The notes beneath the pieces were generated by a model. The model was not told the DNA's origin and did not search any database. It was given only the letters and a program-made list of their open reading frames with translations. From a virus: a stretch of 64,000 nt of DNA. The position numbers were made by a program, and so were the translations under genes. Of this stretch, positions 6,620-55,154 are shown piece by piece (within the stretch, counting starts at the first letter, position 1; each line of letters begins with the position of its first letter). The stretch lies in UHGV virus genome UHGV-0214148; one strand, written 5' to 3'.

Positions 6620-6632
6620 GGAGAATTTTTTG

Positions 6633-10814: not shown

Positions 10815-10852
10815 GACAGACTGCCTGCGGGCAGTTGTGTGTCCGTAGGTAA

Positions 10853-10889
10853 CCCCTCCCTGTAATGGGGAGGGGTATCCATTTTATTT
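10853..10889 (+). terminator. intrinsic terminator
   Basis: Stem CCCCTCCC/GGGAGGGG (10853-10860/10868-10875) followed by a T-rich tract; a second short hairpin sits at 10820-10835. Confidence 0.6.
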
Positions 10890-10908
10890 AAAAGTAGGAG
10901 TCTTTACG

Positions 10909-19474: not shown

Positions 19475-20398
19475 ATGACAACCAATGCAGAACCAAGGTT
19501 ATCGAATCGTTTATACGATAAACCCACCGTATTGTCCGTAGTCGCTACGTCCAAGTGCAACCTGGATTGTAGCTTCTGCGGTGGAGCCTATTACATGAAT
19601 CGTGAAGATTCTCCGCGAGAGTTTCAACGTGAGCGAATTTTGGAAGCGCTGGAAGCTAATCCAACCATTACCGAAATTCAGTGGACGGGTGGTGAGCCAT
19701 TACTGGCAACCCGTAAAATTGAGGCGTTTGTTGACGAATTAAAAGTGATTCGTCCAGAACTCAAACACCAGTTGTATACCAATGGCTTAAAGATGCGTAA
19801 ATCGCATCTCCCGTTGCTAAAACAGTTTGACAATGTCTACGTTAGCATCGATGGGTTTAAGTCGTCTGAGCGCCCGTTTATGCGCTTTATTGACGAAGGC
19901 TGTTACGAAGCACTGGAAACGATCTACGAGCTGGATAATGTCCAGACTTGGGGTGTCCTGACACGGGACCGTTTAGGGGACAAACGCTGGCACGAAGATA
20001 TTATTCAGCTGCACAGCGCGATTTACCATTACGGTTTCCGTGCAATGACGTTACTCTTAGATGCGAAAATGCCAAAACCTTTATCGCCCGACCACGTCAT
20101 GAACTTTATTTACGGCTACTATCAGGTTCAGGATAACATTGAACGACTGAATGTAGTAAATAGTCGTGAATGCGGCTTTACGGTAAGTAAAGTGTTTGAA
20201 GAAGGGTGTAACGTTTGCAGCGAAAGTCTTTGGATTAATGCAGACGGTGGTGAGCACCAACTCCAGAATGCACCTAACGTTCTGGAATCGGGATGTAACC
20301 AACTGGCCTTCTCTATCGGTGTAGAGGCGTACGAATATATTCGTCGCGTAGTGATGGCAGGGCGTAATAGAGGGGCGGCAAATGAGTCAAGTAAATGA
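19475..20398 (+). CDS. radical SAM enzyme (307 aa)
   Basis: N-terminal CNLDCSFC (CxxxCxxC) cluster and TGGEPLL SAM-binding motif; extra C-terminal cysteines (CNVC...C). Confidence 0.8.
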   Translation: MTTNAEPRLSNRLYDKPTVLSVVATSKCNLDCSFCGGAYYMNREDSPREFQRERILEALEANPTITEIQWTGGEPLLATRKIEAFVDELKVIRPELKHQLYTNGLKMRKSHLPLLKQFDNVYVSIDGFKSSERPFMRFIDEGCYEALETIYELDNVQTWGVLTRDRLGDKRWHEDIIQLHSAIYHYGFRAMTLLLDAKMPKPLSPDHVMNFIYGYYQVQDNIERLNVVNSRECGFTVSKVFEEGCNVCSESLWINADGGEHQLQNAPNVLESGCNQLAFSIGVEAYEYIRRVVMAGRNRGAANESSK

Positions 20399-21704
20399 AT
20401 TCCCTAAGCAGTTAACGTATCAGATCGTAACCAACCTTTCGTGTAACCTGGACTGCGAATATTGTTACGAACGTAAGTACCCGCGTAACAACAAAGCGGC
20501 GGATATTGTTGATTTCTTACACGCCTGTTTTGAACGTGATAAAAACGAACCGAATGTTGAAGTTATTATCGACATTATCGGTGGTGAGCCGTTCATGCAG
20601 CCTAAACTGCTGCTGGCTGCGTTTGAAACCGCTGAGCAGTTGTGTAAAGAACACAACCGACCGTTTATGTTTAGTATCTCCACGAACGGAACGCTGTTAG
20701 ATCGTCCGTTGAACCGTGAGATTGTAGAACGTTGGAAAGACAAACTTTCGGTTGGGGTTTCGATTGACGGCTTACCTGAGTCCCATGACCGTTATCGTAT
20801 CTTCACAACAACACGCCAGGGTTCTTACGAAGCCGCAGTACGTGGCTATAACTACTTAAAAGAGGTTGGCATTGCAGAGCTCGGCGTAAAAGCAACCTTT
20901 ACGTTAGAAACGCTGCCGTTCTATGCTGCGGGGATGAAGTCATTAATTGACATTACTGGCGGTGGGACAATTTCTGGAAACGTAACTTTCGAAGACGTTA
21001 TGCCACGTAGCATGGCGACGTCAATCGCTTTACAGATGATGGATGTGATAGATTACTGGGTTGAGAAAGGATTACACACCAACCCACGTAATATCTTATC
21101 GCACATCATTCCAGAAGGGTTGGATTTCGATACGATTTGGGAACCGAACTGGCGTGACCAGTTACTGTATAATGACACCGTACGGTTGAACCCAGAACGT
21201 TTACGTCCGTTCTGTGGGACGTTAACGCACATGACGTGCTTAGGGTTTGACCGTAAGATCTTTGGCTGTAACCGCTTTATGTCAACGGTAACGTCGCGTT
21301 CTGCGGTGTTTGAGTTGGTAGGTCGGGAATTCGTCAGTCTGGACAACGGTAAATTGTTAGAAGAGATTCAAACGCAATATACCAACTACCCAGAGACCTG
21401 TTTAGGTTGTCCGATGAAACACGCTTGTGGTAGCTGCGCGGCTGCTTCTTACGAGAACGGGGAAGGAACGTTAGAAGACCGTAAAGCGTATCACGCTGAA
21501 CGACGTCAGTGCGGCTGGACGACAGCGAAACTGATGGTGGCGGAATACTGGAAACAGAAGATGGGTACGACGTCAGCAAAAGCGTTCCATGACACGAGCA
21601 TGTGTTATTGCCCACGCTGTGTTCGTGAACGTGCCCAAAAGGAAAAATTATTAAGAGAAGCCAAAGATGAAACCAATTCTGATCAACAATATTACGAAGC
21701 GTAG
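20382..21704 (+). CDS. radical SAM enzyme with SPASM-type C-terminal domain (440 aa)
   Basis: N-terminal CNLDCEYC and GGEPF motifs; C-terminal CLGCPMKHACGSC plus further Cys pairs; start overlaps the upstream gene by 17 nt. Confidence 0.8.
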   Translation: MSQVNEFPKQLTYQIVTNLSCNLDCEYCYERKYPRNNKAADIVDFLHACFERDKNEPNVEVIIDIIGGEPFMQPKLLLAAFETAEQLCKEHNRPFMFSISTNGTLLDRPLNREIVERWKDKLSVGVSIDGLPESHDRYRIFTTTRQGSYEAAVRGYNYLKEVGIAELGVKATFTLETLPFYAAGMKSLIDITGGGTISGNVTFEDVMPRSMATSIALQMMDVIDYWVEKGLHTNPRNILSHIIPEGLDFDTIWEPNWRDQLLYNDTVRLNPERLRPFCGTLTHMTCLGFDRKIFGCNRFMSTVTSRSAVFELVGREFVSLDNGKLLEEIQTQYTNYPETCLGCPMKHACGSCAAASYENGEGTLEDRKAYHAERRQCGWTTAKLMVAEYWKQKMGTTSAKAFHDTSMCYCPRCVRERAQKEKLLREAKDETNSDQQYYEA

Positions 21705-25994: not shown

Positions 25995-26099
25995 TTATAG
26001 AAACCAGAAAAATTCGTATCCACGCTTTTCGTCTTTACGTTTCCGCCCAGACGTTAACGCTTTCCACAATAGTGCTAAGAGTTTAGCAAACCAGTTCAT
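25995..26099 (-). CDS. possible 34-aa membrane peptide (MNWFAKLLALLWKALTSGRKRKDEKRGYEFFWFL)
   Basis: ATG overlaps the stop of the muramidase gene (ATGA); hydrophobic N-terminus then a basic tail; too short for the ORF track. Confidence 0.3.
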   Translation of the reverse strand: MNWFAKLLALLWKALTSGRKRKDEKRGYEFFWFL

Positions 26100-26686
26100 T
26101 TTACTAACCCCGCCTTCACTACATAATCCGGCATTTCCCTGAACACACGTGCATACCAACCGTAAGCGAATTTTTCATTCTTCTTACGCTTTTCGGAGAT
26201 TTCTGTGTAGTAAGTTACCTGGTGTGAGATTAACGCAAAGATTAAAATGCCTAATCCCTCGCCTTTACGGTAATTCAGATAAGCATTCAGAGCACCTAGC
26301 GTTTTAGGCCCCATACCGCCGTCGGTGTCAATATCTGCGTAAAGTTTCCCTTCGTTATTTAAAACGTTGAGAATACGTTGTAACGATTTCACACAATTAA
26401 CGCGGCCAGAGTTAATAGCAAAATCAAACATCCGGTCGGCGAGTATCGGCGAGATAGCGAAAATCTCATCGAGTTTAAGTTTCTTCCACCAACCACGATC
26501 GTAAATGTCAAACGCTTGCGCACGGGTCAGATCTTTCATTCTTCCTTTGTACCCGTATTCGCGTGCAGTTGTCAGTGTTACCCCGTGACAGGTTTCCCCA
26601 CCTTTATCGTCAGGGTCGTTCACGTACCCGCCTTCTAAATCTGTTTTCGAAGCAATAATACCTTCTTTAGTCCAACGTTCGGCCAT
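26096..26686 (-). CDS. GH108-family muramidase with C-terminal peptidoglycan-binding domain
   Basis: N-terminal EGGYVNDPDDKGGETCHGVT signature of GH108 lysozymes. Confidence 0.7.
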   Translation of the reverse strand: MAERWTKEGIIASKTDLEGGYVNDPDDKGGETCHGVTLTTAREYGYKGRMKDLTRAQAFDIYDRGWWKKLKLDEIFAISPILADRMFDFAINSGRVNCVKSLQRILNVLNNEGKLYADIDTDGGMGPKTLGALNAYLNYRKGEGLGILIFALISHQVTYYTEISEKRKKNEKFAYGWYARVFREMPDYVVKAGLVK

Positions 26687-26757: not shown

Positions 26758-27222
26758 TTAGCGAGATGGCTTGGCTGGCGCTGCGGCGACAGCCGGTTTA
26801 CGCGCAACGCGTACTGTAAAACCACCGACCCAGGTTAGGCACTCAGGACGGAAGAAAATACCGTGCTCGATTGCACTGCCGTCTAGCGGTAACGCACCAA
26901 CCTGCTCTACCCATACATCGTCTTCTGTAAGGGTTAAGCCATACTGCTCGTTAATTACAGGCAGCAAGTCCGCAGTCGTGGTTGCTGCCTCAACTAACAG
27001 TTTCGGCAATACGTTGAGGAAATACAAACCTGCATCAATGCGGTTATACTGGAACGTTTGCTTATTAACATAACCGAGATTCTTAACCGGCACAACCGTA
27101 ATTTCGGTGTTGTACGTACCGGTACTTACGACGGGCTCACCCAATGTGACTTTGGCGGTGTCGAGCTCGGCGTCTGGGTTAGCCTTTTTAATAAGGTCGA
27201 AGATAGTTTCTTGACTGGTCAT
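26758..27222 (-). CDS. hypothetical protein, distant A-type paralogue (154 aa)
   Basis: ORF length; N-terminal pattern resembles family A. Confidence 0.5.
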   Translation of the reverse strand: MTSQETIFDLIKKANPDAELDTAKVTLGEPVVSTGTYNTEITVVPVKNLGYVNKQTFQYNRIDAGLYFLNVLPKLLVEAATTTADLLPVINEQYGLTLTEDDVWVEQVGALPLDGSAIEHGIFFRPECLTWVGGFTVRVARKPAVAAAPAKPSR

Positions 27223-27235
27223 TACTGTAATCCTC

Positions 27236-28084
27236 TTAATCTAAGAATCCCGGTAAGACCGAATTAGTCTTGGCTAATTCAATCTTCGACTTCGGACGAT
27301 CGGTTCCGTTAAAGTGAATTAACAGTTTACCGGTCAGGTTAGAACACATACCGCTTAGGGCGAGTACCAGCACACGCGTGTACTTCGCATTTGCGCCTTC
27401 GAAACCTGCGGTAGGGCCATCGTAGATAACCTTAGCACCGAACAAGTTATTAGCAGCGTTCTTAGGTACGCTTACCCATTTCTCATCAACAACGTTAGTC
27501 AGTTTAGTAGCTAACTCTACTAAGTCTACGGTGCCGTTGATGGTAATTGGATCAAGGTAATCTTTTTCTGCGGTGAAGTCAATTGGGTAAGAATAAACCG
27601 CAGCGTTACCTTTCTTAGTGGACGGATACTCTACCAGGTTTTCTAATTGAGTAACAGGTAACAGTTTAGCCAGATCAATAGGGTCGCGTAGCGTGAGTGT
27701 CACCTCGCCACACCACTCGTAGGATTTCTCGTTAGCGGTAAGCTGATGGGTTTCACCTTCAACTTTCGCATCAACGATATCCGACGGTAGAATATTTAAA
27801 TCGTATTTTGCGTTGATTGCATTAAGCAAATCTGCAGCGGTTACAACACCGTCGTTACCGAATACCAACTCACCTGTTAGGTATTCGGGCAAATTACGAC
27901 GATGGTAAGTCACGGTTAAAGTAGTAGACTCATCGCCTTTGAGTTTAGAAGTCAGAACCACCTGGGTATCAACCCCAGTACCAGTAGGTTCGCCGATATC
28001 AACATCACTGAAAGTCAATGGCGGAACAATATTGTTTTCAGTGTTGATGAGTTTTAGCAGTTTCTGTTTTGACGTAAGAGACAT
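27236..28084 (-). CDS. hypothetical protein, distant A-type paralogue (282 aa)
   Basis: ORF length; N-terminal pattern resembles family A. Confidence 0.55.
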   Translation of the reverse strand: MSLTSKQKLLKLINTENNIVPPLTFSDVDIGEPTGTGVDTQVVLTSKLKGDESTTLTVTYHRRNLPEYLTGELVFGNDGVVTAADLLNAINAKYDLNILPSDIVDAKVEGETHQLTANEKSYEWCGEVTLTLRDPIDLAKLLPVTQLENLVEYPSTKKGNAAVYSYPIDFTAEKDYLDPITINGTVDLVELATKLTNVVDEKWVSVPKNAANNLFGAKVIYDGPTAGFEGANAKYTRVLVLALSGMCSNLTGKLLIHFNGTDRPKSKIELAKTNSVLPGFLD

Positions 28085-28216: not shown

Positions 28217-28244
28217 TTCCGCTATAGACCGAAGCCTATAGCGG
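28217..28244 (-). terminator. intrinsic terminator
   Basis: 10-bp stem TCCGCTATAG/CTATAGCGGA with an A-rich flank (U-run on the minus transcript). Confidence 0.5.
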
Positions 28245-28251
28245 AGTGAGA

Positions 28252-28683
28252 TTAACGAACGTTGTGTGCTAAGTACATCAGGGTACGGGTGTCGATATCA
28301 CGAGAAGTTTGTGACATCTGACTCAGTAGAGCGCTGGCAGTAGGGTCATTGTAAACGCGACTTAACCACTCGTCAACCATTTCTGGTACAGTGTCGACCA
28401 GAAGCGGATAGTTAAGATTTTCCAGCGTGTATTCAACGAATTCGTGCATCAGATTCTGGTCACGATGCATAGTGTCACCTAACTCACCTACAGGGTACTC
28501 TTCGCGAGGACGTTTGCCCCAGCTACAGATGTGCATGTAGTTAGTATTCACAATTTCCTGATATTCTTCTAACTTAACTAAATCGAAATCAGTATTTGGA
28601 CGACAGAAACCTGCTAAAACGCCCAGAGCAATAGGGTTGTTACGAATGTAGTTACGGATATCATCTTTTAATACGAAAAACAT
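28252..28683 (-). CDS. hypothetical protein (143 aa), paralogue of 29550..29978
   Basis: Shared D.R.YIR..P N-terminus and overall pattern. Confidence 0.55.
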   Translation of the reverse strand: MFFVLKDDIRNYIRNNPIALGVLAGFCRPNTDFDLVKLEEYQEIVNTNYMHICSWGKRPREEYPVGELGDTMHRDQNLMHEFVEYTLENLNYPLLVDTVPEMVDEWLSRVYNDPTASALLSQMSQTSRDIDTRTLMYLAHNVR

Positions 28684-28715
28684 TTTAATACTCCTTTAGG
28701 TAAATACAATAATAG

Positions 28716-28735
28716 AGGGGTGGTTTACCACCCCT
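28716..28735 (-). terminator. intrinsic terminator
   Basis: Stem AGGGGTGG/CCACCCCT. Confidence 0.45.
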
Positions 28736-28759
28736 TAGATGAATCTAGAACGTCGTTAA

Positions 28760-29527
28760 TTAACGACGTTTTTGACAATTAGGACAATCGCAATCTTTGT
28801 TGTAAATATCAAAAATCTTTTCGAGAACCATGGCACGTGCTTTTTCGATATAAGAATCCGTTGAAACTATTCGCATAAAGTTCGTTAATGATTTGAAAAC
28901 CTCAACATCGTTGTCGATCAAAACGGTGAGCGTTTCACCTTTGTAAACGGATTGATGAATTTTCTCCTTGTGTTCGTGAACAGCCACACGCATGAGTTCA
29001 TCAGCGGTATCTTTTCCGATACCATGAATCGAAATAAGTCGAACAGCGTCGTTATCGATCAGCTTAACGATAGAACGAATATCTTCCATGAGGTTACGAT
29101 CGTCTTTCTTCAATCGAACGAGGAGCTTGCTGTTATCCCAGTAAATGCCTAAATCGTCGTGATAGAGGGTCTCTAACGCTTCTTTAATTTCCTTAATCTT
29201 CTTACCTTCGTACCAGAGGACGTGCGGTTCGTCTTTCTGCTGTTTTTCGGCCTCGGCTTTCGGTTGTTCAGTCTCGGTCGTTTCTACCCAGGCGTTCGTG
29301 GTACCTTCTGCTGGGTTGAGTAACTCACCGATTTCTTTCGCAATAGTGTCACAAAGATAATCGTTGCTGTGAGTCCAGTAGAACACGATGCTTTCATCAT
29401 TGAGTTGTTCTACACGGAAATGCACACCTTTATCCAGGAATATGCGATAAAGTTGATCGAGTAACTGTGCTTCAGGAACCGGACGGATTTCAGTTTTAAC
29501 GAGCGGGGTAATTTCGATACTAAACAT
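28760..29527 (-). CDS. hypothetical protein (255 aa)
   Basis: ORF length; first gene of the second copy of a duplicated two-gene module. Confidence 0.55.
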   Translation of the reverse strand: MFSIEITPLVKTEIRPVPEAQLLDQLYRIFLDKGVHFRVEQLNDESIVFYWTHSNDYLCDTIAKEIGELLNPAEGTTNAWVETTETEQPKAEAEKQQKDEPHVLWYEGKKIKEIKEALETLYHDDLGIYWDNSKLLVRLKKDDRNLMEDIRSIVKLIDNDAVRLISIHGIGKDTADELMRVAVHEHKEKIHQSVYKGETLTVLIDNDVEVFKSLTNFMRIVSTDSYIEKARAMVLEKIFDIYNKDCDCPNCQKRR

Positions 29528-29549
29528 GTCATTTTTTCCTTTTGGTAAA

Positions 29550-29978
29550 TTAACTGTAATTGTGCTTAAAGAACTCTAAAGCACGCTGGTCGTTTGTAAT
29601 CGCCGTTGTGGACATTCGTTTTAACGCCTGGCGACAGTAAGGGTCATTAAGAATACGTTGCTGCCAAGCATTGACTATTTCCGTCACTGTTTCCCCTTCT
29701 ACAGCAGTGTTAAGTTTATCGAGGCAGTGTCGGCCTAACAGAAACGCAACCGCATAATCTGTAAACATCTCTGTGCCGAAAGGACCATCAGGATAATCGC
29801 AACGTTTACGTACTGAGGTTGCGGTAATGGAGTTATATGCGGTTTTTATTATCTCGTGAAATTGTTCCACAGTTAAGACGTTAACGTCAGTACCTGAAAG
29901 CGTAAGTGATGCCAGTACAGGAATACTGGCTGGGTACTTACGGATATAATCACGCAAATCTGAATTGAGCGTCTTCAT
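29550..29978 (-). CDS. hypothetical protein (142 aa), paralogue of 28252..28683
   Basis: Paralogy; overlaps the upstream gene by 29 nt. Confidence 0.55.
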   Translation of the reverse strand: MKTLNSDLRDYIRKYPASIPVLASLTLSGTDVNVLTVEQFHEIIKTAYNSITATSVRKRCDYPDGPFGTEMFTDYAVAFLLGRHCLDKLNTAVEGETVTEIVNAWQQRILNDPYCRQALKRMSTTAITNDQRALEFFKHNYS

Positions 29979-30726
29979 TCTTGAACCCCTTTGTTTTTAT
30001 CCAATATAAGCAATTTGTACCAACCTGAACTGGTTCGATCCTATCGAGTTCTTCCATCAAAGCCAGATAAGTCTGCCAAACGATTTGACGTTCGAGGAAA
30101 AATGATGTTGTGCCATTAGACCTAACACAAGCACGTACCAGGTGCTCGGTTTGTGAAAACTGTATATTAACGTTGTTCAGGACACGTTGAATAGTATCAG
30201 AATCGTAATGCGCGAAACGATCTTTGTGTACCAGAACCAACTCTATAGGCGTGGAATCGTCATTGACTGAAAAAGGTTCGTCAATACGAATAAGGTTATT
30301 CCGGTGAGGTACCCCATCATAACCGAGCGTATAAACATCCATACCTTCCCCTGGGTTACAGTCGAAATACTCCAGAAGTTTATCAGCGTTTTTCTCCGCC
30401 GAACGTTTAAAGTAAACAATATAAACGCCATGACTAACCTTCTCAACTTCGTATACTTTTTCGGAGAGTGCCCTGAAGATTGCCATGACGTTTAATCTTC
30501 CTTTGTCTTTAGCAACGTAACTTGCAACTAAACACGTTGCTTCACCACGAAGAACATCGTCAATGAACTCTTTTGCTCGTTTTAATTCATCCTCGTTAAA
30601 ACCACCGATAGTGAGCTCATTCCCACAAATCTGATAAGCAAGATGTGGAGTAACGTTTTTCAGGAAACTCGTAATGATGTGCGTGTATGCCCAAAGACTA
30701 CTATTCTTAAACTCGATAGTTTTCAT
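29950..30726 (-). CDS. hypothetical protein (258 aa)
   Basis: ORF length. Confidence 0.55.
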   Translation of the reverse strand: MKTIEFKNSSLWAYTHIITSFLKNVTPHLAYQICGNELTIGGFNEDELKRAKEFIDDVLRGEATCLVASYVAKDKGRLNVMAIFRALSEKVYEVEKVSHGVYIVYFKRSAEKNADKLLEYFDCNPGEGMDVYTLGYDGVPHRNNLIRIDEPFSVNDDSTPIELVLVHKDRFAHYDSDTIQRVLNNVNIQFSQTEHLVRACVRSNGTTSFFLERQIVWQTYLALMEELDRIEPVQVGTNCLYWIKTKGFKNEDAQFRFA

Positions 30727-30793: not shown

Positions 30794-31300
30794 TTAAACG
30801 TTGAAGTTAAAACGTACGTCTAAGATATTGGATATAAGATTGAAAAGTTCAACTTTGGTAGCTAAACCGGCTCTTAAGTAAACGTCAAAGCTATCCTTAC
30901 GGAAACTAAATTTAACCGAACTACCTAGCTCCTTTCTGAATTCGTCATAAAGTTCGTACTTATCGACATCCGTTAAGTCTTTATCGAATTCTACCGTGAA
31001 GCGATATTTTTCTTTGGCTTCCATTCCTTTAGTGTAAACCGCACATTTAGCGGTGGTGGTACCGACGATTTCGCACACCATATTGAACATTTCCTCATCG
31101 GTACGTACTGCGGCGGTGTAACCAATATCGATGGAGTCTTTACGGAAACCCATAAAGAACAACGCACCGAAGTGTTTGCGGAAAGCTTTATACAGCGCAT
31201 CTTTTTCATCTTCGGTTAATACGTAGTCCAGTTCAACAGTAAACTTGTAATCTTCTTTAGAAACGAATTCTTTAGCATAATCAACTTTAGTGAAGTTCAT
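30794..31300 (-). CDS. hypothetical protein with internal tandem duplication (168 aa)
   Basis: Two roughly 80-aa halves share K..Y.FTVE.D..LT...K..LY..FRK..G.....FRKDS.D. Confidence 0.55.
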   Translation of the reverse strand: MNFTKVDYAKEFVSKEDYKFTVELDYVLTEDEKDALYKAFRKHFGALFFMGFRKDSIDIGYTAAVRTDEEMFNMVCEIVGTTTAKCAVYTKGMEAKEKYRFTVEFDKDLTDVDKYELYDEFRKELGSSVKFSFRKDSFDVYLRAGLATKVELFNLISNILDVRFNFNV

Positions 31301-31346
31301 GGTATATTCTCCTAAAATGGTTTTTCGTTAAGTGAGAGCTTTTGTA

Positions 31347-31372
31347 CCCTCACCTAAGTAATATATATCTGA
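31347..31372 (-). promoter_or_regulatory. conserved 26-bp promoter-like element, copy A
   Basis: CCTCACCTAAGTAATATATATCTGA, nearly identical to copies at 35726 and 55204, each 47-76 nt upstream of a minus-strand start codon. Confidence 0.45.
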
Positions 31373-31383
31373 AATTATTTTTA

Positions 31384-31686
31384 TTAAAACCCCGCAATAA
31401 AACTACCTAGCGAGACACGCTGTAGGTATTTTGGTTTGCGTGCCAGGTAACAGTTCTTAGGATTACCTATTGCCATCTGCGCAACTGCACGTTCTAAACG
31501 CGGTGCTTCTAAGATGGCGCGATAGTTCCCTTCGTAATGCATTAACCACGCACACTCTTCAACGAAACGTTTTGCTTCGCGATAATCTAACGTACGAATT
31601 AACTTCTTGCCCCGGTATTGTTTTACATCACCGTTTTGACAAAATACAATAGTTTCACGATTCATTGATAATCTCCCAGAATTCAC
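31384..31686 (-). CDS. hypothetical protein (100 aa)
   Basis: ORF length. Confidence 0.5.
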   Translation of the reverse strand: MNSGRLSMNRETIVFCQNGDVKQYRGKKLIRTLDYREAKRFVEECAWLMHYEGNYRAILEAPRLERAVAQMAIGNPKNCYLARKPKYLQRVSLGSFIAGF

Positions 31687-33533: not shown

Positions 33534-34376
33534 TTATTTAAGATTCTGAATTTCTCTCATCTCGTTACAAAACTTATCAAACAACTGGGCGTATTTGTCA
33601 ATGTGATTTTCGAACTCCCCAAAAAGGTGGCGTGAAAGGCGTTCGCTGACTTCCTTTTCGTATTTCTCGAGAAGTTGTTTAAAATATTCACTGTCTCTCT
33701 TAATTTTCTTCACATGGGATTCCAAAACTTTAAGAATCCATGATTCGTTTCTGATCAAGAGATTCAAATTACCTTCAAGATATTTGCTTTGATAAATCAT
33801 AAATTCGCGGCCTTCGAGTTCATCTTTCACGCGTCGGATAAACTCGCCAGCATTGGCTTCGCTAATATCTTCAACTGTAAATACCAGAACATTTTCTCCC
33901 TCTATGTCTTCCAATAGTTGATTTAAAAGAACACGATAGCTAGTATATTCATAGTTCACCCTAAGTACGTTGTTTTCAACCAGATAAGTGAATTTGTCGC
34001 TGTAAAAAAGGTATAATATCGATCCAATTTTACCTGCTTGTTTGGGGGTAAGCGGAATCTCGTCTGTGAAGTAAGCGACGTCTTTTGCGGTGGGCTTGTC
34101 TTTTAGCCTACAAGTCATTTGATCGGGTATTTCTTGCCCTTTAGGCATCTCAACAGGCCGTACCAAAATATCCATAACTGCACTAATGAGCTTGTTAGAG
34201 AAATCGACCTCGCCTTCTACCCAGAAAATATTAAATGTTTCCGATTTAACTTTATAGTAAAAGGTGTACGTTTTTTGTAACTCAGCGATTTCCTTAATTT
34301 GTTCTTCTGTGGGGATAGGGGAGATCTTAAACCTGCTGATGACTTTTTCTTCTTCGGTGAGTTCGAACTGTAACAT
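33534..34376 (-). CDS. hypothetical protein (280 aa)
   Basis: ORF length. Confidence 0.55.
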   Translation of the reverse strand: MLQFELTEEEKVISRFKISPIPTEEQIKEIAELQKTYTFYYKVKSETFNIFWVEGEVDFSNKLISAVMDILVRPVEMPKGQEIPDQMTCRLKDKPTAKDVAYFTDEIPLTPKQAGKIGSILYLFYSDKFTYLVENNVLRVNYEYTSYRVLLNQLLEDIEGENVLVFTVEDISEANAGEFIRRVKDELEGREFMIYQSKYLEGNLNLLIRNESWILKVLESHVKKIKRDSEYFKQLLEKYEKEVSERLSRHLFGEFENHIDKYAQLFDKFCNEMREIQNLK

Positions 34377-37925: not shown

Positions 37926-38438
37926 CTACTCTCCAAAAGTTAAGATTTTATTGTCAAACGTCAACACGACAGAATCATCACCGATGCCACACGGTGTTTC
38001 ATCTGGGCCGAAAACCACCACGGAGAACTGTCCTTTATAAGCGATGGAATTTGGAGCGATGCTAAGCGTTACCGCGTCTTTACCTACCGTGAACGACTGG
38101 TCGGTTAAATCGTCGGTTTGTAAGTTAGCACCACAAACGGCATTGACGGATTCGATAAGATCGTGTGCATTAAACCCTTCACCTATTACTTTTACCAGAA
38201 TAGGTTGTTGGTTTAACCACCGCTCTGCGGTTAAACGGTTGTAGTAGATTTGCAACGTTCTGTTTCCAGGACGTTTAATCTTTACAATGGCAGTGGAGTC
38301 ACGATCCATTTCATCACTGGTTTTTACGTCACTGACTTCAACCTCGTTCTCTTGCAAGTCAAGTTGGAGGTCATGGTTAACCAGTGAAATAACCATGTTA
38401 AGTGAAGTTAGTGATAAATCTGGTGTGAATTTTTCCAC
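37926..38438 (-). CDS. hypothetical protein, paralogue family B (170 aa)
   Basis: GTG start with TAGGAGGT SD; shares PDLSL...NHD...YY.RL...CG.NLQ..DL and C-terminal CGIGDD.VLTF blocks with 44527..45087. Confidence 0.55.
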   Translation of the reverse strand: MEKFTPDLSLTSLNMVISLVNHDLQLDLQENEVEVSDVKTSDEMDRDSTAIVKIKRPGNRTLQIYYNRLTAERWLNQQPILVKVIGEGFNAHDLIESVNAVCGANLQTDDLTDQSFTVGKDAVTLSIAPNSIAYKGQFSVVVFGPDETPCGIGDDSVVLTFDNKILTFGE

Positions 38439-38535: not shown

Positions 38536-38979
38536 TTAGCTAATTCTCAAATCACGCAGTGCGCCTGTCGATTTCATCGCGTTTTGGAACGCGCCACTGA
38601 TGTTATTAGTCCAGTAATAATGCTGTCCGTTAATAACCTGCTGATAGGTCAGTGCGCAGGTGTTACCACCTAAATTTACGGTAATGTTAGAGGCTCTGCC
38701 TCCTTGTAAGTAAACCGCTAAAGTAGGCTTTGCGTTGGCAACTATCGTCGTTAACTGTAACTCAATACCTACTAAAGTTCCCACCCCGCAGTTACCCGCG
38801 TTTTGAATGGTTCCCTGATTTTTCTGGTTTAACGGCCAGCTTGGTCCTACCGCGCCCCATTTCTTACCTAAAGAATCGCTATATGCAGCGGTTGCAATTT
38901 TACAGCCCATAGATCTTCCCACCATTTGACTCATCATAAAAGGTCTACCCAATCCTAATTTACTACCAGCAGCGCTCAT
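38536..38979 (-). CDS. adhesin-like Gly-rich protein, paralogue family C (147 aa as an intact ORF)
   Basis: Paralogue of 39298..39843; the conserved N-terminal extension and its SD/ATG lie upstream in another frame (see 38980..39044). Confidence 0.55.
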   Translation of the reverse strand: MSAAGSKLGLGRPFMMSQMVGRSMGCKIATAAYSDSLGKKWGAVGPSWPLNQKNQGTIQNAGNCGVGTLVGIELQLTTIVANAKPTLAVYLQGGRASNITVNLGGNTCALTYQQVINGQHYYWTNNISGAFQNAMKSTGALRDLRIS

Positions 38980-39297: not shown

Positions 39298-39843
39298 TTA
39301 GACTACACTTATTGAAATTGTTGCACCGTTCTGATTAAATAACCAGTTGGTTGCCGTCTTAGCCTCATAGCGCCGGACGCCGTTACTGTAAGAGTACGGT
39401 AGAAAAGTAATCTTCGTTCCGTTAAACGAAAGCGTAATATTCTGATTTGGTCCATTAGTTAGGGCCATGTAGATAATACCAGTATTTTGTACTTGGCTAA
39501 GATGTGTGACGCTACAACCCAAGATCGAACCTGACACCGAACCGGCCGCATTTTGTGTTTGCACACGATTCGATACTGTAGAACCAGCACCCGTTGTTGT
39601 AGAGTTGTTCGAATACCCCCCATACGTATTTGTAATAGGAACCCACTGCGTGTTCGTAGCCTGCACCAAAACAACATAGGTTGATCGGCCTACAACGAGT
39701 TTAAGATCCTCTACGCTACGCCCGACCATCTGCGACATGTTAAATGGTGTGCTCAGTTTAAGCTTATTACCTGCCACACTCATCCACTCCTGACCGGTTA
39801 CTGCCTTTGCTGAGCTTCCAACCCAGCCGGATGCTACCCCCAT
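39298..39843 (-). CDS. adhesin-like Gly/Ser/Thr-rich protein, paralogue family C (181 aa)
   Basis: ORF length; paralogy with 38536..38979 including the N-terminal extension. Confidence 0.6.
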   Translation of the reverse strand: MGVASGWVGSSAKAVTGQEWMSVAGNKLKLSTPFNMSQMVGRSVEDLKLVVGRSTYVVLVQATNTQWVPITNTYGGYSNNSTTTGAGSTVSNRVQTQNAAGSVSGSILGCSVTHLSQVQNTGIIYMALTNGPNQNITLSFNGTKITFLPYSYSNGVRRYEAKTATNWLFNQNGATISISVV

Positions 39844-39884: not shown

Positions 39885-42800
39885 TTAATTCCCCTTGAGT
39901 TCTTTAAGCTCTTGGCGAAGAGTTTTCATGCCTTCTACTAACAACGCAATAACACCATTGTAATTTAGACGTAAACGTTTTTCGCCTGAAATGGCATCAT
40001 CATCCTCAGACACAAGCTCAGGTAACGCTTCTAGAGCGTCCTGAGCAATTAGACCTACAGAAGTCTGCCAGCCGTCGTCAGGATGCTGAATTTCGTACAA
40101 ATAACCGGTTAGTAACTCTAACCGATCCAAAGCCTTATCCAGCTTCACCAGATTACGTTTGTTACGACGGTCAGAACGAATCTGTACGTCGTTAAACGAA
40201 CCGTTACCGTTGCCAGTAACGTTATGTCCAAAGTTTACTTGGCCGTTAGAATTATTAAAAGACAACGGGCGTAATCCGTTCCAGGAACCCGCTGCGGCTT
40301 GTCCGGCGTCGGTTACTAAGAAATAGGTATTGGCACCGTCGTTACGTAAAATAAAACCGTAGGTACCGTAAGCGATTCGAAAATCAGGGTATTTAGTGGC
40401 CAATTTACCATTAACGGTTAAATCACCGCCTACAGTACCGCCCCCTGACGGTAACGCGCCCACTTCCGCAGCAGTTGGCTTGTTTCTCGTATTGTAAGCA
40501 CGACGCCAGCCTGGTGAGTATCCATCGCCGTTAAATACGTAGATAAACTCCGCATTAGTGAGTGCTCCGCCGACGCTCGTCGTTGTGGCGGTCGTTATAC
40601 GGATCGTGTAGTTGTTTGTGCTGTTGCCGTTACTAATGACTTCTATAACGGCCCCAGCTAACGGAATGACACCACAACCCGTCTCGCTGTGAGGTATGGA
40701 CGCACTGGCGGCATAAGCCCACGCACAGCGAGCAACCCACGATCTTGTGGTAAATGCGCCGTTATTTTTCAATAACGTCACTAGCTGTGCTGTAGTTATT
40801 GCACCGCCATTAGCGCCAGTTTCTAACCAACCACTAGGTGATGCCGGACAACCTATTTCGGCTGGCCCTAACGATATATTTCTAGTGCCATCAAACGCAA
40901 TACCATTGATGGTTCTTGCGGTTTGCAACTTTGTTGCCGTGGCTGCGTTTCCGGTGGTCGACTGATTCCCTGTTTGGTTTACTCCAGGTAAGTTGATGTC
41001 TTTAGTACCATCAAAAGCTACGCCACCTATATTTCGCGCAGTCTGGAGCTTAGTCGCAGTCGCAGCATTCCCCGTCGTCGATTGGTTACCGGTTTGGTTC
41101 ACACCGGGCAGACTAATGTCTTGCGAACCATCAAAGTTAATACCACCGATCTTACGTGGCGTTTGTAACTTAGTAGCGGTCGCTGCATTACCTGTCGTAT
41201 TCTGGTTACCTTGCTGGTTAACCCCCGGTAAATTGATATCCCCAGTACCGTCAAAGGTAACGCCCCCGATTCTGCGAGCAGTTTTCAGTTTCGTCGCGGT
41301 AGCAGCGTTACCAGTAGTATCTTGATTACCGGTGGTATTTACACCAGGAATACTATCACGGGCAGTATAAACTTGTGCCCAATCTGACCACGGCGCATCC
41401 GCTGTATCGCGTCGACTACGAATATAAACGGGTGCGTGCGCACCACTCGTGCCCGACCAACCGATTAACAGTTCACCTTCACCTAGCGCAGTAGAACCGC
41501 CCAAATGCAGCAAGTTACCATAAGCGGTCGGATAACCGTTATTGTAAACTTCGTACATCTGAATACCGGGTGTACCTTTGTTTGAACCGGTTAGTGCAGT
41601 AACCCGACCACGACCTACCAGGGTGTTGATATTGATGTCAGCAGAACCATCGAATCTCACACCGTTAATATTTCTGGCAGTTTGAAGTTTAGTGGCTGTC
41701 CCGGCATTACCCGTGGTGTTTTGATTACCCTGTTGGTTAACACCTGGGAGGTTAATATCAGCACTACCGTCGAAAGCGACTCCACCAATTCTACGTGCCG
41801 TCTTTAATTTCGTTGCGGTTGAAGCATTGCCTGTTAACTCGCCTGCTAACCCTTTTGCAAAGGTCTGTTTTTCTGCCCAGGTGTGTGCTGCATTCAATAC
41901 AGGCATCTGTCGTGGTGTAATCGTACGACTACCTTTCTCACCAGCGATACGTACTGCAAAGAATCGATAGTTGGCAGTAGACACCGTACTACGCCAAACC
42001 AACATACTCCGGCCTGATGTAGCGCCATCTGATGGACCAACCAGAATGCTAACTAAGTTACCGTCAATAACACCCCAATCCATTCCCGTAGGAATGTTTT
42101 TCATGGTGTTAAGCGGCGTACAGATTAACTCACCCGGTTTAAAGTCATAGGTTTGCCAGTCTAAAGGATCAACATTCGCACGTTCACCGCCGATACCTAA
42201 TACCAGCGGAAGCGAATACGATGTGAAAACCTCACGCCAATCGCTCCAAGCGTTACCCGTACGGATACGTTGGAATTTACGACCTTTAGTTTCTGTACCC
42301 GTACCGTATGTAGTATAATTCTGTTCGACCCCTGTACCGTCTAAGCGTAAGGTAACTTCACAAACGCCTAATATGGTTTCACCAGAAGAACCGGTAAGTG
42401 GACCGTTAGTTGCTTCACCAGTGACACTGAAACGTCCCGGTTTAACGAGATCGTTAAAATTGGCTTTAAAGAAAGCACCGTCAGTCTGATAACCAACCTG
42501 AATCCAATCTTCCCATTGCGGGTTTGATGAATCCCACGTTGCGGTCAAACCACGAACATACATCGTACCACGACGTGTGGTGTATCGCTGCAACCGTCCG
42601 AAAAGACCACCTTCCATTACTTCTAGTACGCCTTGCGCACCGCCACCTTCTTCAGGGTAATGTCTGCTAAAAACAGCCAGCGAACTGCTTGAGTTTCGCC
42701 AGTTACCCATATGCTCAGCGCCACCCAAACTGTTCAAGTCTATAGCGGTAGATAATGGACGTACACCAGTAGTTACCATTCTCCACGGCGACCAGGGTCC

Positions 42801-44324
42801 ATTGGCACCATTCCACTCGCCACTCAGCATACGGTTGTACACGTTACCATTACGACAGGTAAAACGCTGTGCACCACTGTAATTACCGGCTTTATACACT
42901 TCCAGATAACCGACTGCACCGTCTTCTGGGAAATGTTTTGCCATCGACGCATTGGTTGACGTCGACTTAGCCCACGTTCCTGTGTAATTGGCATCAGGAG
43001 CAAATGTGTTAATATCAGCATCTACAGGCATTTCGCCACGGAAACGTAGATAGGTGTCAGGAGACAGACCGATATTGCGAGCAAACGTTTCTTTATCTGG
43101 GATATCAGCGCCGTTAGAGTTTTTCTGTAACGCGCCATTCGCTTTATCTACAGTGGCTTTTAATCCCAAGAAATTGATGATATCCGCAGTTGACCCTTTC
43201 GCTAACAAGGATCTGGCCGTTTCTGTAAAATCCGTTAATCCGACTTTATTACTGCCAGTGAAATACATGAGTTTATTTGCCGCTGTGGTGACTGCGGCAA
43301 TGGCGGTGAGCAACGGACTGAGAGGTTGTTTCTGCGCAAGTTCCCCAGTAATCGTTGTTGCGAAGTTAGGGTCATTACCTAACGCCTCAGCTAATTCCGC
43401 TAAGGTATTTAACGTCTCGGGTGAAGAACCAACCAGTTCCGCAATCGCGTCACGCACCCAGGCCGTTGTGGAGATGCTCGTGTCGTTCGAGTCCTTCGGG
43501 GGTGTTGGGGATGACGGTTTACCCGTAAAATTCGGCGAATGTTTATTGGCTTTTAACTGTAATTCGTCATTCAGCTGTTTAACCGTGGACGGTGTGGCGG
43601 CCTCAGTCACGGATTCGCTAGTCAGTGTATCGTTAAGTTTAACGATACCTTTACCGGTCGTACTAGCGTCGATTAAGCCCTGCGCAGCGATTTTCTCCGC
43701 ACGTAAGGCAGCTGACTCCGAGCGTGTTGCTGCGCCTTCTGAACTTTCTTTATCTTTCGCGACCTGTGCAGCAATCTTCTCCACTGCGCCCTTACTGGCC
43801 TCAACTGAAGCCGCAGTATTCTCGACACCGGTAGCCGTCTGTTGGACTTGTCCGGCCTGTTGCGTAACCGTTTCTGCTTTCTTAGTTACATCAGCCGCTG
43901 CAGCCGTCACCGATTGTTCGCTTGTAGCGACAGCTTGAGCTTTCTCATTTACCGACTGTAATACAGTATCTACGGCAGTTTTCGCGGCTAAAACTTCAGC
44001 GTGTTTTTTGTTAACCTCAGCAGTTTTAGTGGCAACGGTTCCCGCTTGCTCGCTAACGGTGGAAGCTAACGTGTCAGTTTGTTGCTTCGCGGTTTCTGCT
44101 AAGTCTTTTGCTTGTGTGGCTTCTGTTGCAGACTGTTGTGATTTGGCCGCAGCCGTTTGTGCGTCAGCAACCGCGTTTCTGACGGTGTCAATATCCGCAA
44201 CAATCTCGCGGACAGGTAACTGATAATCCCTTTCGTCTTTCGAAAAAAGTAAAACGCCTTCACCGATATCCCCGGTGTATGGACGTAAATCGTGTAAACG
44301 AATTTTCTTTACCGCTTTAGCCAT
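39885..44324 (-). CDS. long tail fibre with coiled-coil shaft, tandem fibre repeats and C-terminal intramolecular chaperone domain (1479 aa)
   Basis: Ala/Gln/Thr-rich coiled coil; about six copies of a roughly 40-aa repeat (NTTGNAATATKLQTAR.IGGV.FDG..DINLPGVNQ.GNQ); C-terminal SDRRNKRNL...LTGYLYE resembles peptidase-S74 chaperone domains. Confidence 0.85.
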   Translation of the reverse strand: MAKAVKKIRLHDLRPYTGDIGEGVLLFSKDERDYQLPVREIVADIDTVRNAVADAQTAAAKSQQSATEATQAKDLAETAKQQTDTLASTVSEQAGTVATKTAEVNKKHAEVLAAKTAVDTVLQSVNEKAQAVATSEQSVTAAAADVTKKAETVTQQAGQVQQTATGVENTAASVEASKGAVEKIAAQVAKDKESSEGAATRSESAALRAEKIAAQGLIDASTTGKGIVKLNDTLTSESVTEAATPSTVKQLNDELQLKANKHSPNFTGKPSSPTPPKDSNDTSISTTAWVRDAIAELVGSSPETLNTLAELAEALGNDPNFATTITGELAQKQPLSPLLTAIAAVTTAANKLMYFTGSNKVGLTDFTETARSLLAKGSTADIINFLGLKATVDKANGALQKNSNGADIPDKETFARNIGLSPDTYLRFRGEMPVDADINTFAPDANYTGTWAKSTSTNASMAKHFPEDGAVGYLEVYKAGNYSGAQRFTCRNGNVYNRMLSGEWNGANGPWSPWRMVTTGVRPLSTAIDLNSLGGAEHMGNWRNSSSSLAVFSRHYPEEGGGAQGVLEVMEGGLFGRLQRYTTRRGTMYVRGLTATWDSSNPQWEDWIQVGYQTDGAFFKANFNDLVKPGRFSVTGEATNGPLTGSSGETILGVCEVTLRLDGTGVEQNYTTYGTGTETKGRKFQRIRTGNAWSDWREVFTSYSLPLVLGIGGERANVDPLDWQTYDFKPGELICTPLNTMKNIPTGMDWGVIDGNLVSILVGPSDGATSGRSMLVWRSTVSTANYRFFAVRIAGEKGSRTITPRQMPVLNAAHTWAEKQTFAKGLAGELTGNASTATKLKTARRIGGVAFDGSADINLPGVNQQGNQNTTGNAGTATKLQTARNINGVRFDGSADININTLVGRGRVTALTGSNKGTPGIQMYEVYNNGYPTAYGNLLHLGGSTALGEGELLIGWSGTSGAHAPVYIRSRRDTADAPWSDWAQVYTARDSIPGVNTTGNQDTTGNAATATKLKTARRIGGVTFDGTGDINLPGVNQQGNQNTTGNAATATKLQTPRKIGGINFDGSQDISLPGVNQTGNQSTTGNAATATKLQTARNIGGVAFDGTKDINLPGVNQTGNQSTTGNAATATKLQTARTINGIAFDGTRNISLGPAEIGCPASPSGWLETGANGGAITTAQLVTLLKNNGAFTTRSWVARCAWAYAASASIPHSETGCGVIPLAGAVIEVISNGNSTNNYTIRITTATTTSVGGALTNAEFIYVFNGDGYSPGWRRAYNTRNKPTAAEVGALPSGGGTVGGDLTVNGKLATKYPDFRIAYGTYGFILRNDGANTYFLVTDAGQAAAGSWNGLRPLSFNNSNGQVNFGHNVTGNGNGSFNDVQIRSDRRNKRNLVKLDKALDRLELLTGYLYEIQHPDDGWQTSVGLIAQDALEALPELVSEDDDAISGEKRLRLNYNGVIALLVEGMKTLRQELKELKGN
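40850..41340 (-). repeat. tandem roughly 120-nt coding repeats (fibre repeat units)
   Basis: Near-identical DNA units seen directly; further copies lie around 41640-41830. Confidence 0.6.
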
Positions 44325-44526: not shown

Positions 44527-45087
44527 TCATGTAGCCGGGTTTTCTTCAGCTGTGTCGTCATCTGGAACCTCAAAGGTAAGAACGGCATCATCACCAATAC
44601 AGAAGATCGCATCATCTTCGTTTGCTAATGCTCGTTCGGTTGTATCGAATAACGTTACCATAAACGCATTCATCCACGCAGGAGAATCGTCAGCAACGTT
44701 AACAGCAATGGGTTCGTTACCTAAGGTGATATCTGCAGCACGTAAATCTTCGGGTTGTAAGTTCGTTCCGCAGAATTCATTTACAACACCTAAAATGTCA
44801 CGAAGGTTGTCTTCAGTACCGTCTAACGAAATCAAAATAGGTTCAGACGCTAACACTTCGTCCGCATCCAAACGGTCGTAATAAACAACCACAGAAGCAC
44901 CATCAGGTTTCCTGATTTTTGTAATCTCTGTCAGTGTGTTACGACGCGAAGTGGTCGGGGACGGGTTTGCCATAGTGTTGCTAATACGGATTTCGTTTAG
45001 AGACAACCGTGAACCGTTATCGTGGTTGATTAAAGCGACCACTAATTCGGCTGAGGCCAGACTTAAATCAGGTACGTAAGTAGTCAC
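44527..45087 (-). CDS. hypothetical protein, paralogue family B (186 aa)
   Basis: Start reassigned to GTG 45087 (GGGAGG 5 nt upstream); the track ATG 45153 lies upstream of terminator 45121-45144, and homology to 37926..38438 begins right after the GTG. Confidence 0.55.
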   Translation of the reverse strand: MTTYVPDLSLASAELVVALINHDNGSRLSLNEIRISNTMANPSPTTSRRNTLTEITKIRKPDGASVVVYYDRLDADEVLASEPILISLDGTEDNLRDILGVVNEFCGTNLQPEDLRAADITLGNEPIAVNVADDSPAWMNAFMVTLFDTTERALANEDDAIFCIGDDAVLTFEVPDDDTAEENPAT

Positions 45088-45120
45088 TAAAACCTCCCAG
45101 ATCAAAAAAATAAAAACACC

Positions 45121-45144
45121 TACCGCCCATAGAATCGGGCGGTA
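45121..45144 (-). terminator. intrinsic terminator
   Basis: Stem TACCGCCC/GGGCGGTA followed on the minus transcript by a U-rich run. Confidence 0.55.
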
Positions 45145-45173
45145 GACAGTCATTTTACAGCTAAAAAATCAAA

Positions 45174-54794: not shown

Positions 54795-55154
54795 TTAGTG
54801 TGTTGCGGCGTTAGTGATAAAACGCACATTCTTCGTGGTGCGTTTAATGGACGTGTTTGCAACGTAGTCCAACGCGGACTCTACGTGAACGGTTACTGAG
54901 CAACGACCCTTAACGGAATTAAAACTAATCTGGTATTTCAGACGAATCGCATCAGCAACTTTCATCATAATCGGCAAACTTAAACGTTCTGAGTGATCGT
55001 TCTTAATAGACGAGATAACGGGTTGTGAAACTTTCGCAAGCTGGGCAAGTTCACGCTGAGTAATGTCTTTTGTGGTCAAATGACGAATTACGTAAGACAA
55101 GTGAAGACCGAATTTACGCTTTGCCAGAATGATGGAATTGTGATTGTAAGCCAT
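54795..55154 (-). CDS. helix-turn-helix transcriptional regulator (XRE-like)
   Basis: ITQRELAQLAKVSQPVISSIKN helix-turn-helix signature; sits downstream of promoter-like element C. Confidence 0.6.
   Translation of the reverse strand: MAYNHNSIILAKRKFGLHLSYVIRHLTTKDITQRELAQLAKVSQPVISSIKNDHSERLSLPIMMKVADAIRLKYQISFNSVKGRCSVTVHVESALDYVANTSIKRTTKNVRFITNAATH

What the first reader, a model, noticed from the sequence alone, without database searches (positions are those of the whole stretch)
28252..30726. Tandemly duplicated two-gene module
The gene pairs 29950..30726 plus 29550..29978 and 28760..29527 plus 28252..28683 repeat the same architecture (about 255 aa followed by about 142 aa). The small partners are clearly paralogous (D.R.YIR..P... 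patterns). Duplicated and diverged pairs are typical of host-takeover, immunity or anti-defence modules.
Basis: seen in the sequence. Interest (0 to 1): 0.45.

Follow-up and report, generated by a model that had tools for sequence, protein, structure and literature searches.

The report
Duplicated small gene, unrelated large neighbours
In an early-expressed operon of a giant "persistent" enterobacterial phage, only the small gene (a conserved all-helical protein of unknown function) is truly duplicated; the two large neighbours are unrelated, swappable cassette genes, so this is ordinary jumbo-phage accessory-gene turnover and not a duplicated two-gene module.

Summary
The four ORFs exist as described, all on the minus strand. 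The small partners, S1 (28252..28683) and S2 (29550..29978), are real paralogues: 34% identity, E=1e-28, both phrog_8484. The large partners, L1 (28760..29527) and L2 (29950..30726), show no similarity by BLASTP, profile-profile comparison, an exhaustive HMMER search of 1.84 billion proteins, or a repeat-unit HMM.

L1's true paralogue is a 280-aa gene 4 kb upstream (33534..34376; hhalign 95%, E=3.6e-8). The shared ~255-aa size is coincidental. L1 ranges from 243 to 399 aa through duplication of internal ferredoxin-like units. The L2 slot holds 254-263-aa proteins or an unrelated 157-aa protein in close relatives.

S and L alleles do not co-vary across nine genomes, which argues against cognate pairs. 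Outgroup phages (phiEaH2, SPAsTU) carry one S gene and no L.

The genes form one operon (D168-L2-S2-L1-S1). It starts at a conserved AT-rich motif typical of jumbo-phage virion-RNAP early promoters and ends at a strong terminator. The host element is a Seoul-like chimallivirus often deposited as a ~222 kb plasmid. All genes are under purifying selection and none has a known function. S has a confident all-alpha model with no solved-structure match.

Verdict: real but ordinary, low-to-moderate interest.

The parts
28252..28683 (-). S1: 143-aa all-alpha protein (phrog_8484). It is the last gene of the operon and the most constrained one.
   Evidence: ORF. phrog_8484 E=1.8e-17. AF2 pLDDT 92.5 with 7 helices. 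Median dN/dS 0.04. 94-99% identical in 5 of 9 genomes.
29550..29978 (-). S2: 142-aa paralogue of S1. It overlaps the end of L2 by 29 nt, so translational coupling is likely.
   Evidence: BLASTP against S1: 34% identity, E=1e-28. phrog_8484 E=1.7e-15. Overlap read from the sequence. In relatives, S2 overlaps or lies within 5 nt of whichever gene is upstream. dN/dS 0.15.
28760..29527 (-). L1: 255-aa protein made of three ferredoxin-like beta-alpha-beta-beta-alpha units (residues 9-70, 103-158, 162-221), a disordered acidic linker (74-98) and a C-terminal CxCPxCQ motif. Units 2+3 are duplicated in the 363-399-aa homologues.
29950..30726 (-). L2: 258-aa lineage-restricted orphan occupying a variable cassette slot. 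It is not related to L1.
   Evidence: Only 4 clusters among 5.8 billion proteins. The exhaustive search adds only a fragment and a 263-aa variant. 47% and 25% identity to the occupants of the same slot in close relatives, and replaced by an unrelated 157-aa protein in three genomes.
30794..31300 (-). D168: first gene of the operon, an internal tandem duplication of an ~82-aa unit. The window carries a divergent allele (45-50% identical to relatives).
   Evidence: The two repeats align. Identity matrix. The Imm-NTF2 hit is below Pfam's threshold and is not reproduced in orthologues.
31320..31386 (-). Putative virion-RNAP early promoter (CAGATATATATTACTTAGG) followed by a 12-bp 5' hairpin.
   Evidence: 97-100% identical in 32 SPN3US/phiEaH2-type phages although the flanks share no DNA similarity. 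3 exact copies in the window against 0.01 expected, all intergenic and co-oriented. Present upstream of the S operon in all relatives. Hairpin z=-5.7. Class of motif described in PMC7598289.
30761..30785 (-). Perfect hairpin (11-12 bp) between D168 and L2.
   Evidence: Read from the sequence. Folding gives -18.8 kcal/mol, z=-4.7.
28716..28735 (-). GC-rich 8-bp hairpin between L1 and S1.
   Evidence: Terminator-like site. Folding gives -15.3 kcal/mol, z=-3.2.
28218..28245 (-). Strong intrinsic terminator (12-bp stem, CUUCGG loop, T-rich tail) that ends the operon upstream of the DUF7941 virion genes.
   Evidence: Scanner result. Folding gives -20.2 kcal/mol, z=-7.3.
33534..34376 (-). L3: 280-aa true paralogue of L1 (same three units), located in the neighbouring upstream early operon and followed by a non-S 171-aa gene.
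   Evidence: hmmsearch E=1e-6. BLASTP E=5e-5. hhalign probability 95%, E=3.6e-8 over 213 columns. The unit HMM hits all three units.

Best explanation
This is one early-class accessory operon (promoter, D168, L2, S2, L1, S1, terminator) of a Seoul-like, nucleus-forming ('persistent') jumbo phage. Its only duplicated component is the small gene. S is an ancestral, conserved 143-aa all-alpha early protein. It is present once behind the same promoter in phiEaH2, Stratton, SPAsTU and a related metagenomic contig, and it was duplicated in this ~222-230 kb lineage to give S1 and S2. Lineage-specific genes are interleaved with the two S copies and are exchanged between phages by recombination as independent cassettes. 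L1 is a 3-to-5-unit ferredoxin/ACT-like repeat protein whose paralogue L3 sits in the next operon. The L2 slot has at least three occupant types, one of them unrelated to the others. D is a two-repeat protein. Inferred mechanism, not shown: the injected virion RNA polymerase transcribes the operon from the TATATATTAC motif at the start of infection. A 5' hairpin and the inter-cistronic hairpins shape transcript stability or read-through. S2 is translated in coupling with whichever cassette lies upstream, and S1 uses its own ribosome-binding site. The strongly constrained S proteins (four invariant Arg, two Asp, one Trp) are taken to act on a conserved phage or host target. The variable repeat proteins are taken to be fast-turnover binders of variable host factors. 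The L and S proteins are not cognate pairs.
For: Paralogy of S1 and S2. No L1-L2 relationship in four independent tests. L1-L3 homology. Gene order D-L2slot-S2-L1-S1 conserved in nine genomes, with free re-assortment of alleles. L1-S1 identity correlation is -0.06 and L2-S2 is 0.36, with one S2 allele beside three L2-slot types. The 157-aa occupant is unrelated to everything else. Outgroups have a single S and no L behind the same promoter. Promoter motif statistics and conservation, with literature on AT-rich early motifs of RNAP-encoding jumbo phages (PMC7598289). Another copy of the motif drives an HTH protein and a DNA methyltransferase, which are non-structural genes. Hairpins and terminator. 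All genes are under purifying selection, dN/dS 0.04-0.29. Element identity.
Against: The biochemical function of every protein is unknown: no Pfam, NCBIfam, PADLOC or PDB match. 'Early' rests on motif class and conservation, not on a mapped transcription start or expression data. hhalign of L3 against L2 gives a borderline P=0.054. By eye, L2 also has beta-alpha-beta-beta-alpha-like segments, and L1, L2 and the 157-aa protein share an M-x-x-[IL]-E-[IF] start. No physical interaction test was possible.
Confidence: 0.7

Rival explanations
1. An ancient duplication of a whole two-gene (L-S) module did occur, and L2 has since diverged beyond sequence recognition or been displaced by non-homologous genes.
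For: The large-small alternation with S1-S2 start-to-start spacing of 1286 nt. The L2 slot evolves or turns over extremely fast (47%, 25% and unrelated occupants), so loss of signal is conceivable. Weak hints exist: L3 vs L2 P=0.054, hhalign aligns an L1 unit with L2 62-109, and the N-termini are similar.
Against: No test reaches significance, including a unit HMM with effective N 8.8 that finds every L1 and L3 unit but scores L2 at E=9.8. L1's recognisable paralogue is L3, which is followed by a non-S gene. Outgroups have S without any L. L1 length is not fixed.
Confidence: 0.18
2. Each large-small pair is a cognate interacting system (toxin-antitoxin, effector-immunity or chaperone-client) that co-evolves.
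For: Tight gene spacing and the L2-S2 overlap. Conserved gene order in nine genomes.
Against: There is no co-variation. The window and M230 are 94% identical in L1 but 57% in S1. The window and L010 are 46% identical in L1 but 94% in S1. One S2 allele accompanies three different upstream proteins. S occurs alone in outgroups. No TA, immunity or defence family hits. L1 and S1 are separated by a hairpin and a 76-nt gap.
Confidence: 0.07
3. S is an assembly or accessory factor for the DUF7941 virion structural proteins encoded immediately downstream, not an early host-directed protein.
For: S lies directly upstream of the DUF7941 paralogue array, in the same orientation, in every lineage examined.
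Against: A strong terminator and a ~170-nt gap separate S1 from the DUF7941 genes. S lies behind the early-type promoter motif in all genomes. In phiEaH2 a depolymerase gene and another small gene intervene.
Confidence: 0.12

Closest known systems
phrog_8484 (uncharacterised jumbo-phage protein family, e.g. Erwinia phage phiEaH2 gp056 and Stratton gp153)
   Same: S1 and S2 match the family HMM end to end. They have the same length, the same position behind the same promoter motif and upstream of DUF7941 genes, and the same predicted fold (BFVD TM 0.86 to the Stratton orthologue).
   Different: Here the gene is duplicated (34% identical copies) and interleaved with large cassette genes. The family itself has no known function.
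ACT / ferredoxin-like (beta-alpha-beta-beta-alpha-beta) domains
Early operons of RNAP-encoding (phiKZ-like, Chimalliviridae) jumbo phages driven by AT-rich virion-RNAP promoters
   Same: A conserved ~10-nt AT-rich motif sits upstream of co-oriented blocks of small non-structural genes of unknown function. The motif is shared at 97-100% with SPN3US-type phages.
   Different: No transcription start or timing data exist for this phage. The motif copies here are each followed by a 5' hairpin, a feature I did not find described.
Polymorphic or cassette loci (variable accessory-gene slots in phage genomes, polymorphic toxin-immunity loci)
   Same: A fixed slot (upstream of S2) is occupied by unrelated or deeply diverged genes in near-identical genomic backbones, with alleles re-assorted by recombination.
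   Different: There is no toxin, immunity or defence domain. The neighbouring conserved gene (S2) does not co-vary with the cassette, and within allele types selection is purifying (dN/dS 0.09-0.23).

Membership tests
phrog_8484 | Significant full-length match to the family HMM | tested here: met
   S1 E=1.8e-17 (residues 2-129 of 143). S2 E=1.7e-15. Homologues in phiEaH2, Stratton and SPAsTU.
   S1-S2 are homologous. L1-L2 are not: BLASTP E=1.3, hhalign P=0.23-0.38, no cross-hit in 1.84 billion proteins, unit HMM E=9.8.
Cognate interacting pair (toxin-antitoxin or effector-immunity type) | Partners co-vary and are co-inherited as allele-matched pairs | tested here: not met
   Spearman correlation of pairwise identities is -0.06 for L1-S1 and 0.36 for L2-S2. 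One S2 allele is found with three different upstream proteins.
Cognate interacting pair (toxin-antitoxin or effector-immunity type) | Physical interaction of the partners | not testable with these tools
Helix-hairpin-helix DNA-binding domain (Pfam HHH_5 / HHH_2) in L1 | Score above the gathering threshold, a conserved GhG hairpin, and a helix-hairpin-helix structure | tested here: not met
   16.6 bits against a cut-off of 27. 'GIG' is absent in the paralogue L3 and in the second module of long forms. In the AF2 model the motif is a strand-to-helix junction, E162-168 to H172-189.
Imm-NTF2 immunity protein (PF15655) for D168 | Score above the gathering threshold, reproducible in orthologues | tested here: not met
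   23.8 bits against a cut-off of 25, with the match spanning the boundary between the two repeats. No hit in orthologues.
HD-domain / cyclic-nucleotide phosphodiesterase superfamily for S | Conserved H...HD...D metal ligands and full catalytic-domain fold | tested here: not met
ACT / ferredoxin-like fold for L1 units | beta-alpha-beta-beta-alpha(-beta) sandwich topology | tested here: inconclusive
Jumbo-phage virion-RNAP early promoter | Conserved AT-rich ~10-nt motif upstream of co-oriented early operons | tested here: met
   3 exact 19-nt copies against 0.01 expected, all intergenic and co-oriented. Conserved across genera. Criterion taken from PMC7598289.
Jumbo-phage virion-RNAP early promoter | Transcription start about 10 nt downstream and early expression timing | not testable with these tools
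   This needs RNA-seq or 5'-end mapping in infected cells.

The most novel reading that the evidence does not exclude
Probability: 0.08. Interest if true: 0.6.

Novelty: new member of a known kind. Interest (0 to 1): 0.25.

Why it matters
The finding mostly matters as a correction. A pattern of gene sizes that looks like a duplicated module is a single-gene duplication embedded in a cassette-shuffling early operon, which is the normal mode of accessory-gene evolution in jumbo phages.

It also yields three usable leads for people working on the recently described persistent Seoul-like chimalliviruses that hide in Salmonella and E. coli isolate assemblies:
- A sharply defined early-promoter motif with a 5' hairpin.
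- A strongly conserved early protein family (S, phrog_8484) with a confident model and no structural relative.
- A ferredoxin-like repeat family (L1/L3) that expands by unit duplication.

None of these has a demonstrated function, so the immediate biological significance is modest.

Tried and rejected
1. **L-S fusion (Rosetta stone).** Many L1 homologues are 363-399 aa, close to 255+143. Inspection showed an internal duplication of L1 units 2+3, not a fusion with S.
2. **HhH DNA-binding domain in L1.** Rejected.
3. **Imm-NTF2 immunity domain in D168.** Rejected, because orthologues do not reproduce it.
4. **My own hypothesis that D168, L2 and L1 share one repeat unit.** No statistical support. 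hhalign gives P=0.18-0.57, and the unit HMM scores L2 at E=9.8 with no D168 hit. It stays open only at the fold level.
5. **Long-protein hits of the L2 profile (P0147-P0149).** These are low-complexity repeat artefacts.
6. **PDE/HD similarity of S.** Only partial, and the catalytic residues are absent.
7. **Weak L1 hit to Mu tail-fibre assembly protein U.** E=0.008, centred on the acidic linker, and disregarded.
8. **Outgroup gene upstream of S (gp055-like) as an ancestral L.** Best P=0.006 against L3, which is not significant after six tests.
9. **Literature search for the string TATATTAC.** Returned nothing relevant. My recollection that it matches the phiKZ early consensus is therefore unverified.
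10. **Other searches.** Rfam, NCBIfam and PADLOC found nothing credible.

Full report
**Observation**

- S1, 28252..28683, 143 aa
- L1, 28760..29527, 255 aa
- S2, 29550..29978, 142 aa
- L2, 29950..30726, 258 aa

The small proteins are true paralogues. BLASTP gives 34% identity over 138 residues without gaps, E=1e-28. Both match phrog_8484, a family of unknown function, at E=1.8e-17 and 1.7e-15. The only DNA-level repeat between the two halves is an 18-nt stretch that encodes their shared D-x-R-x-Y-I-R motif.

The large proteins are not similar:
- BLASTP gives E=1.3.
- Profile-profile comparison gives P=0.23-0.38.
- An exhaustive HMMER search of 1.84 billion representative proteins with the L2 profile returned only L2's own cluster, a fragment and one 263-aa variant. 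It also returned three low-complexity artefacts, and no L1-family protein.

**What the large genes are**

L1 has 252 homologue clusters. Many are 363-399 aa. These are not L-S fusions. They carry an internal duplication of an ~130-aa module.

An AlphaFold2 model of L1 has pLDDT 71 overall and 80-88 in the folded parts. It shows:
- three tandem beta-alpha-beta-beta-alpha units (residues 9-70, 103-158, 162-221)
- a disordered acidic linker (74-98)
- C-terminal helices that end in an invariant CxCPxCQ motif

L1's real paralogue is the 280-aa gene at 33534..34376, which I call L3:
- hmmsearch E=1e-6
- BLASTP E=5e-5
- hhalign probability 95%, E=3.6e-8 over 213 columns

A unit-level HMM built from L1 and L3 recovers all six units at E=1e-10 to 1e-25. 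The same HMM scores L2 at E=9.8 and does not list D168. L3 is followed by a 171-aa phrog_8180 gene that is not S-like.

L2 is a near-orphan, with 4 clusters among 5.8 billion proteins.

**Comparative genomics**

The window belongs to a ~222-230 kb jumbo myovirus. Members of this lineage are deposited as circular 'plasmids' in E. coli (NZ_CP173450.1) and Enterobacter ludwigii (NZ_CP134650.1), and they are abundant in Salmonella and Shigella assemblies. This fits the Seoul-like 'persistent' chimalliviruses described in bioRxiv 10.1101/2024.12.31.630880.

Nine genomes conserve the gene order D, L2-slot, S2, L1, S1, then the DUF7941 virion genes. Alleles re-assort freely between them:

| Comparison | Gene | Identity |
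|---|---|---|
| Window vs the 230-kb contig (M230) | L1 | 94% |
| Window vs the 230-kb contig (M230) | S1 | 57% |
| Window vs L010 | L1 | 46% |
| Window vs L010 | S1 | 94% |

One S2 allele (97-100% identical) lies next to three different upstream proteins: a 254-aa L2 type, a 263-aa type at 26% identity, and a 157-aa protein. The 157-aa protein is unrelated to L2, L1, L3, D or S (all P>0.08).

Spearman correlations of pairwise identities are -0.06 for L1-S1 and 0.36 for L2-S2. All genes are under purifying selection. Median dN/dS values are S1 0.04, D 0.09, L2 0.14, S2 0.15 and L1 0.29. The diversity therefore reflects exchange of old alleles and cassettes, not runaway substitution.

Outgroup phages (phiEaH2, Stratton, SPAsTU and a Logan contig) have one S gene and no L gene. 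S1 and S2 are closer to each other (30-35% identity) than to the outgroup S (22-26%). That fits a duplication specific to this lineage.

**Operon anatomy**

Read 5' to 3' on the minus strand, the locus contains, in order:
1. The motif CAGATATATATTACTTAGG (31353-31371).
2. A 12-bp hairpin (z=-5.7).
3. D168.
4. A perfect hairpin of 11-12 bp (30761-30785, z=-4.7).
5. L2.
6. S2, which overlaps L2 by 29 nt.
7. A 22-nt gap, then L1.
8. A GC-rich hairpin (28716-28735, z=-3.2).
9. S1.
10. A strong terminator (28218-28245, z=-7.3).

The motif occurs three times in the window against 0.01 expected. Every copy is intergenic and co-oriented with the downstream genes. It is 97-100% identical in 32 SPN3US/phiEaH2-type phages that share no other DNA similarity with this region. 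It precedes the S operon in every relative and outgroup.

A review of jumbo-phage RNA polymerases describes exactly this class of signal: conserved AT-rich ~10-nt motifs upstream of early operons, recognised by the virion RNAP (PMC7598289). Another copy of the motif in the window drives an HTH protein, an acetyltransferase-like protein and a DNA methyltransferase. I therefore infer early transcription. This is not shown.

**The small protein**

In BFVD the fold recurs in the Stratton orthologue and in several other uncharacterised 125-145-aa proteins of Erwinia jumbo phages. Residues invariant across the family are R10, R14, P17, R60, P64, G66, G69, D75, W106, D113, S124 and R133. This suggests, but does not show, a charged binding site.

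**Conclusion**

Only the small gene is duplicated. The large neighbours are unrelated cassette genes of coincidentally similar length, and one of them has its paralogue elsewhere.

The best-supported picture is an early accessory operon of a persistent Seoul-like chimallivirus. A conserved early protein (S) was duplicated within it, and lineage-specific repeat proteins are inserted, expanded by unit duplication, and swapped by recombination. Functions remain unknown.

The mechanistic statements about timing, translational coupling, and S acting on a conserved target while L and D act on variable ones are inferences. Fold-level kinship of L2 with L1, and physical L-S interaction, could not be tested here and are listed as decisive next steps.

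Overall this is a real but ordinary feature of jumbo-phage genomes, and I score it low to moderate.

Noticed in passing
window 31353-31371, 35732-35750, 55210-55228 (all minus strand): A 19-nt motif, CAGATATATATTACYTAGG, occurs three times against 0.01 expected. Each copy is intergenic and co-oriented with downstream genes, has an AT-rich tract upstream, and is followed by a hairpin. It is 97-100% identical in 32 SPN3US/phiEaH2-type phages of other genera. It is a likely virion-RNAP early promoter with a 5' stem-loop.
   Followed up: partly
window 33534..34376 (-): A 280-aa gene (L3) is the true paralogue of L1, with the same three beta-alpha-beta-beta-alpha units. It has a coiled-coil-like tail in place of the CxCPxC motif.
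   Followed up: yes
window 30794..31300 (-): The 168-aa first gene of the operon is an internal tandem duplication of an ~82-aa unit. The window's allele is only 45-50% identical to those of otherwise close relatives.
   Followed up: partly
L009 2225-2698, L010 3522-3995, L011 1914-2387: In three close relatives the L2 position holds an unrelated 157-aa orphan protein. This marks a cassette-replacement hotspot immediately upstream of S2.
   Followed up: partly
window 37926..38438 and 44527..45153 (-); also 38536..38979 and 39298..39843 (-): A second paralogue pair (170 and 208 aa, 34% identity, E=1e-30) brackets the 1479-aa tail-fibre gene (39885..44324). Two smaller genes next to the fibre share a 24-aa N-terminus at 71% identity. 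These may be duplicated fibre-associated or adaptor genes.
   Followed up: no
window 2297..16095 (+): Three consecutive giant genes (1440, 1394 and 1728 aa) are paralogous virion structural proteins that share phrog_2163, 7557, 8078 and 7449 regions.
   Followed up: no
window 20382..21704 (+): A 440-aa radical-SAM domain protein (phrog_1802, E=2e-114) lies among the virion genes.
   Followed up: no
whole window; L003 (NZ_CP173450.1), L004 (NZ_CP134650.1): The phage is deposited as a circular ~222 kb 'plasmid' in E. coli and Enterobacter ludwigii, and it occurs on 220-230 kb contigs in many Salmonella and Shigella assemblies. This matches the 'persistent virulent' Seoul-like chimalliviruses of a 2025 preprint. 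It has no close DNA match in the phage collection.
   Followed up: partly
window 26758..27222 and 27236..28084 (-); 26096..26686 (-): Two DUF7941 virion-protein paralogues (one a truncated 154-aa copy) and a GH108 endolysin lie immediately downstream of the operon. The outgroups have arrays of 5-6 DUF7941 genes at the same position.
   Followed up: no
window 52213..53028 and 54795..55154 (-): A DNA methyltransferase and an HTH DNA-binding protein lie in the operon driven by the 55215 copy of the promoter motif.
   Followed up: no
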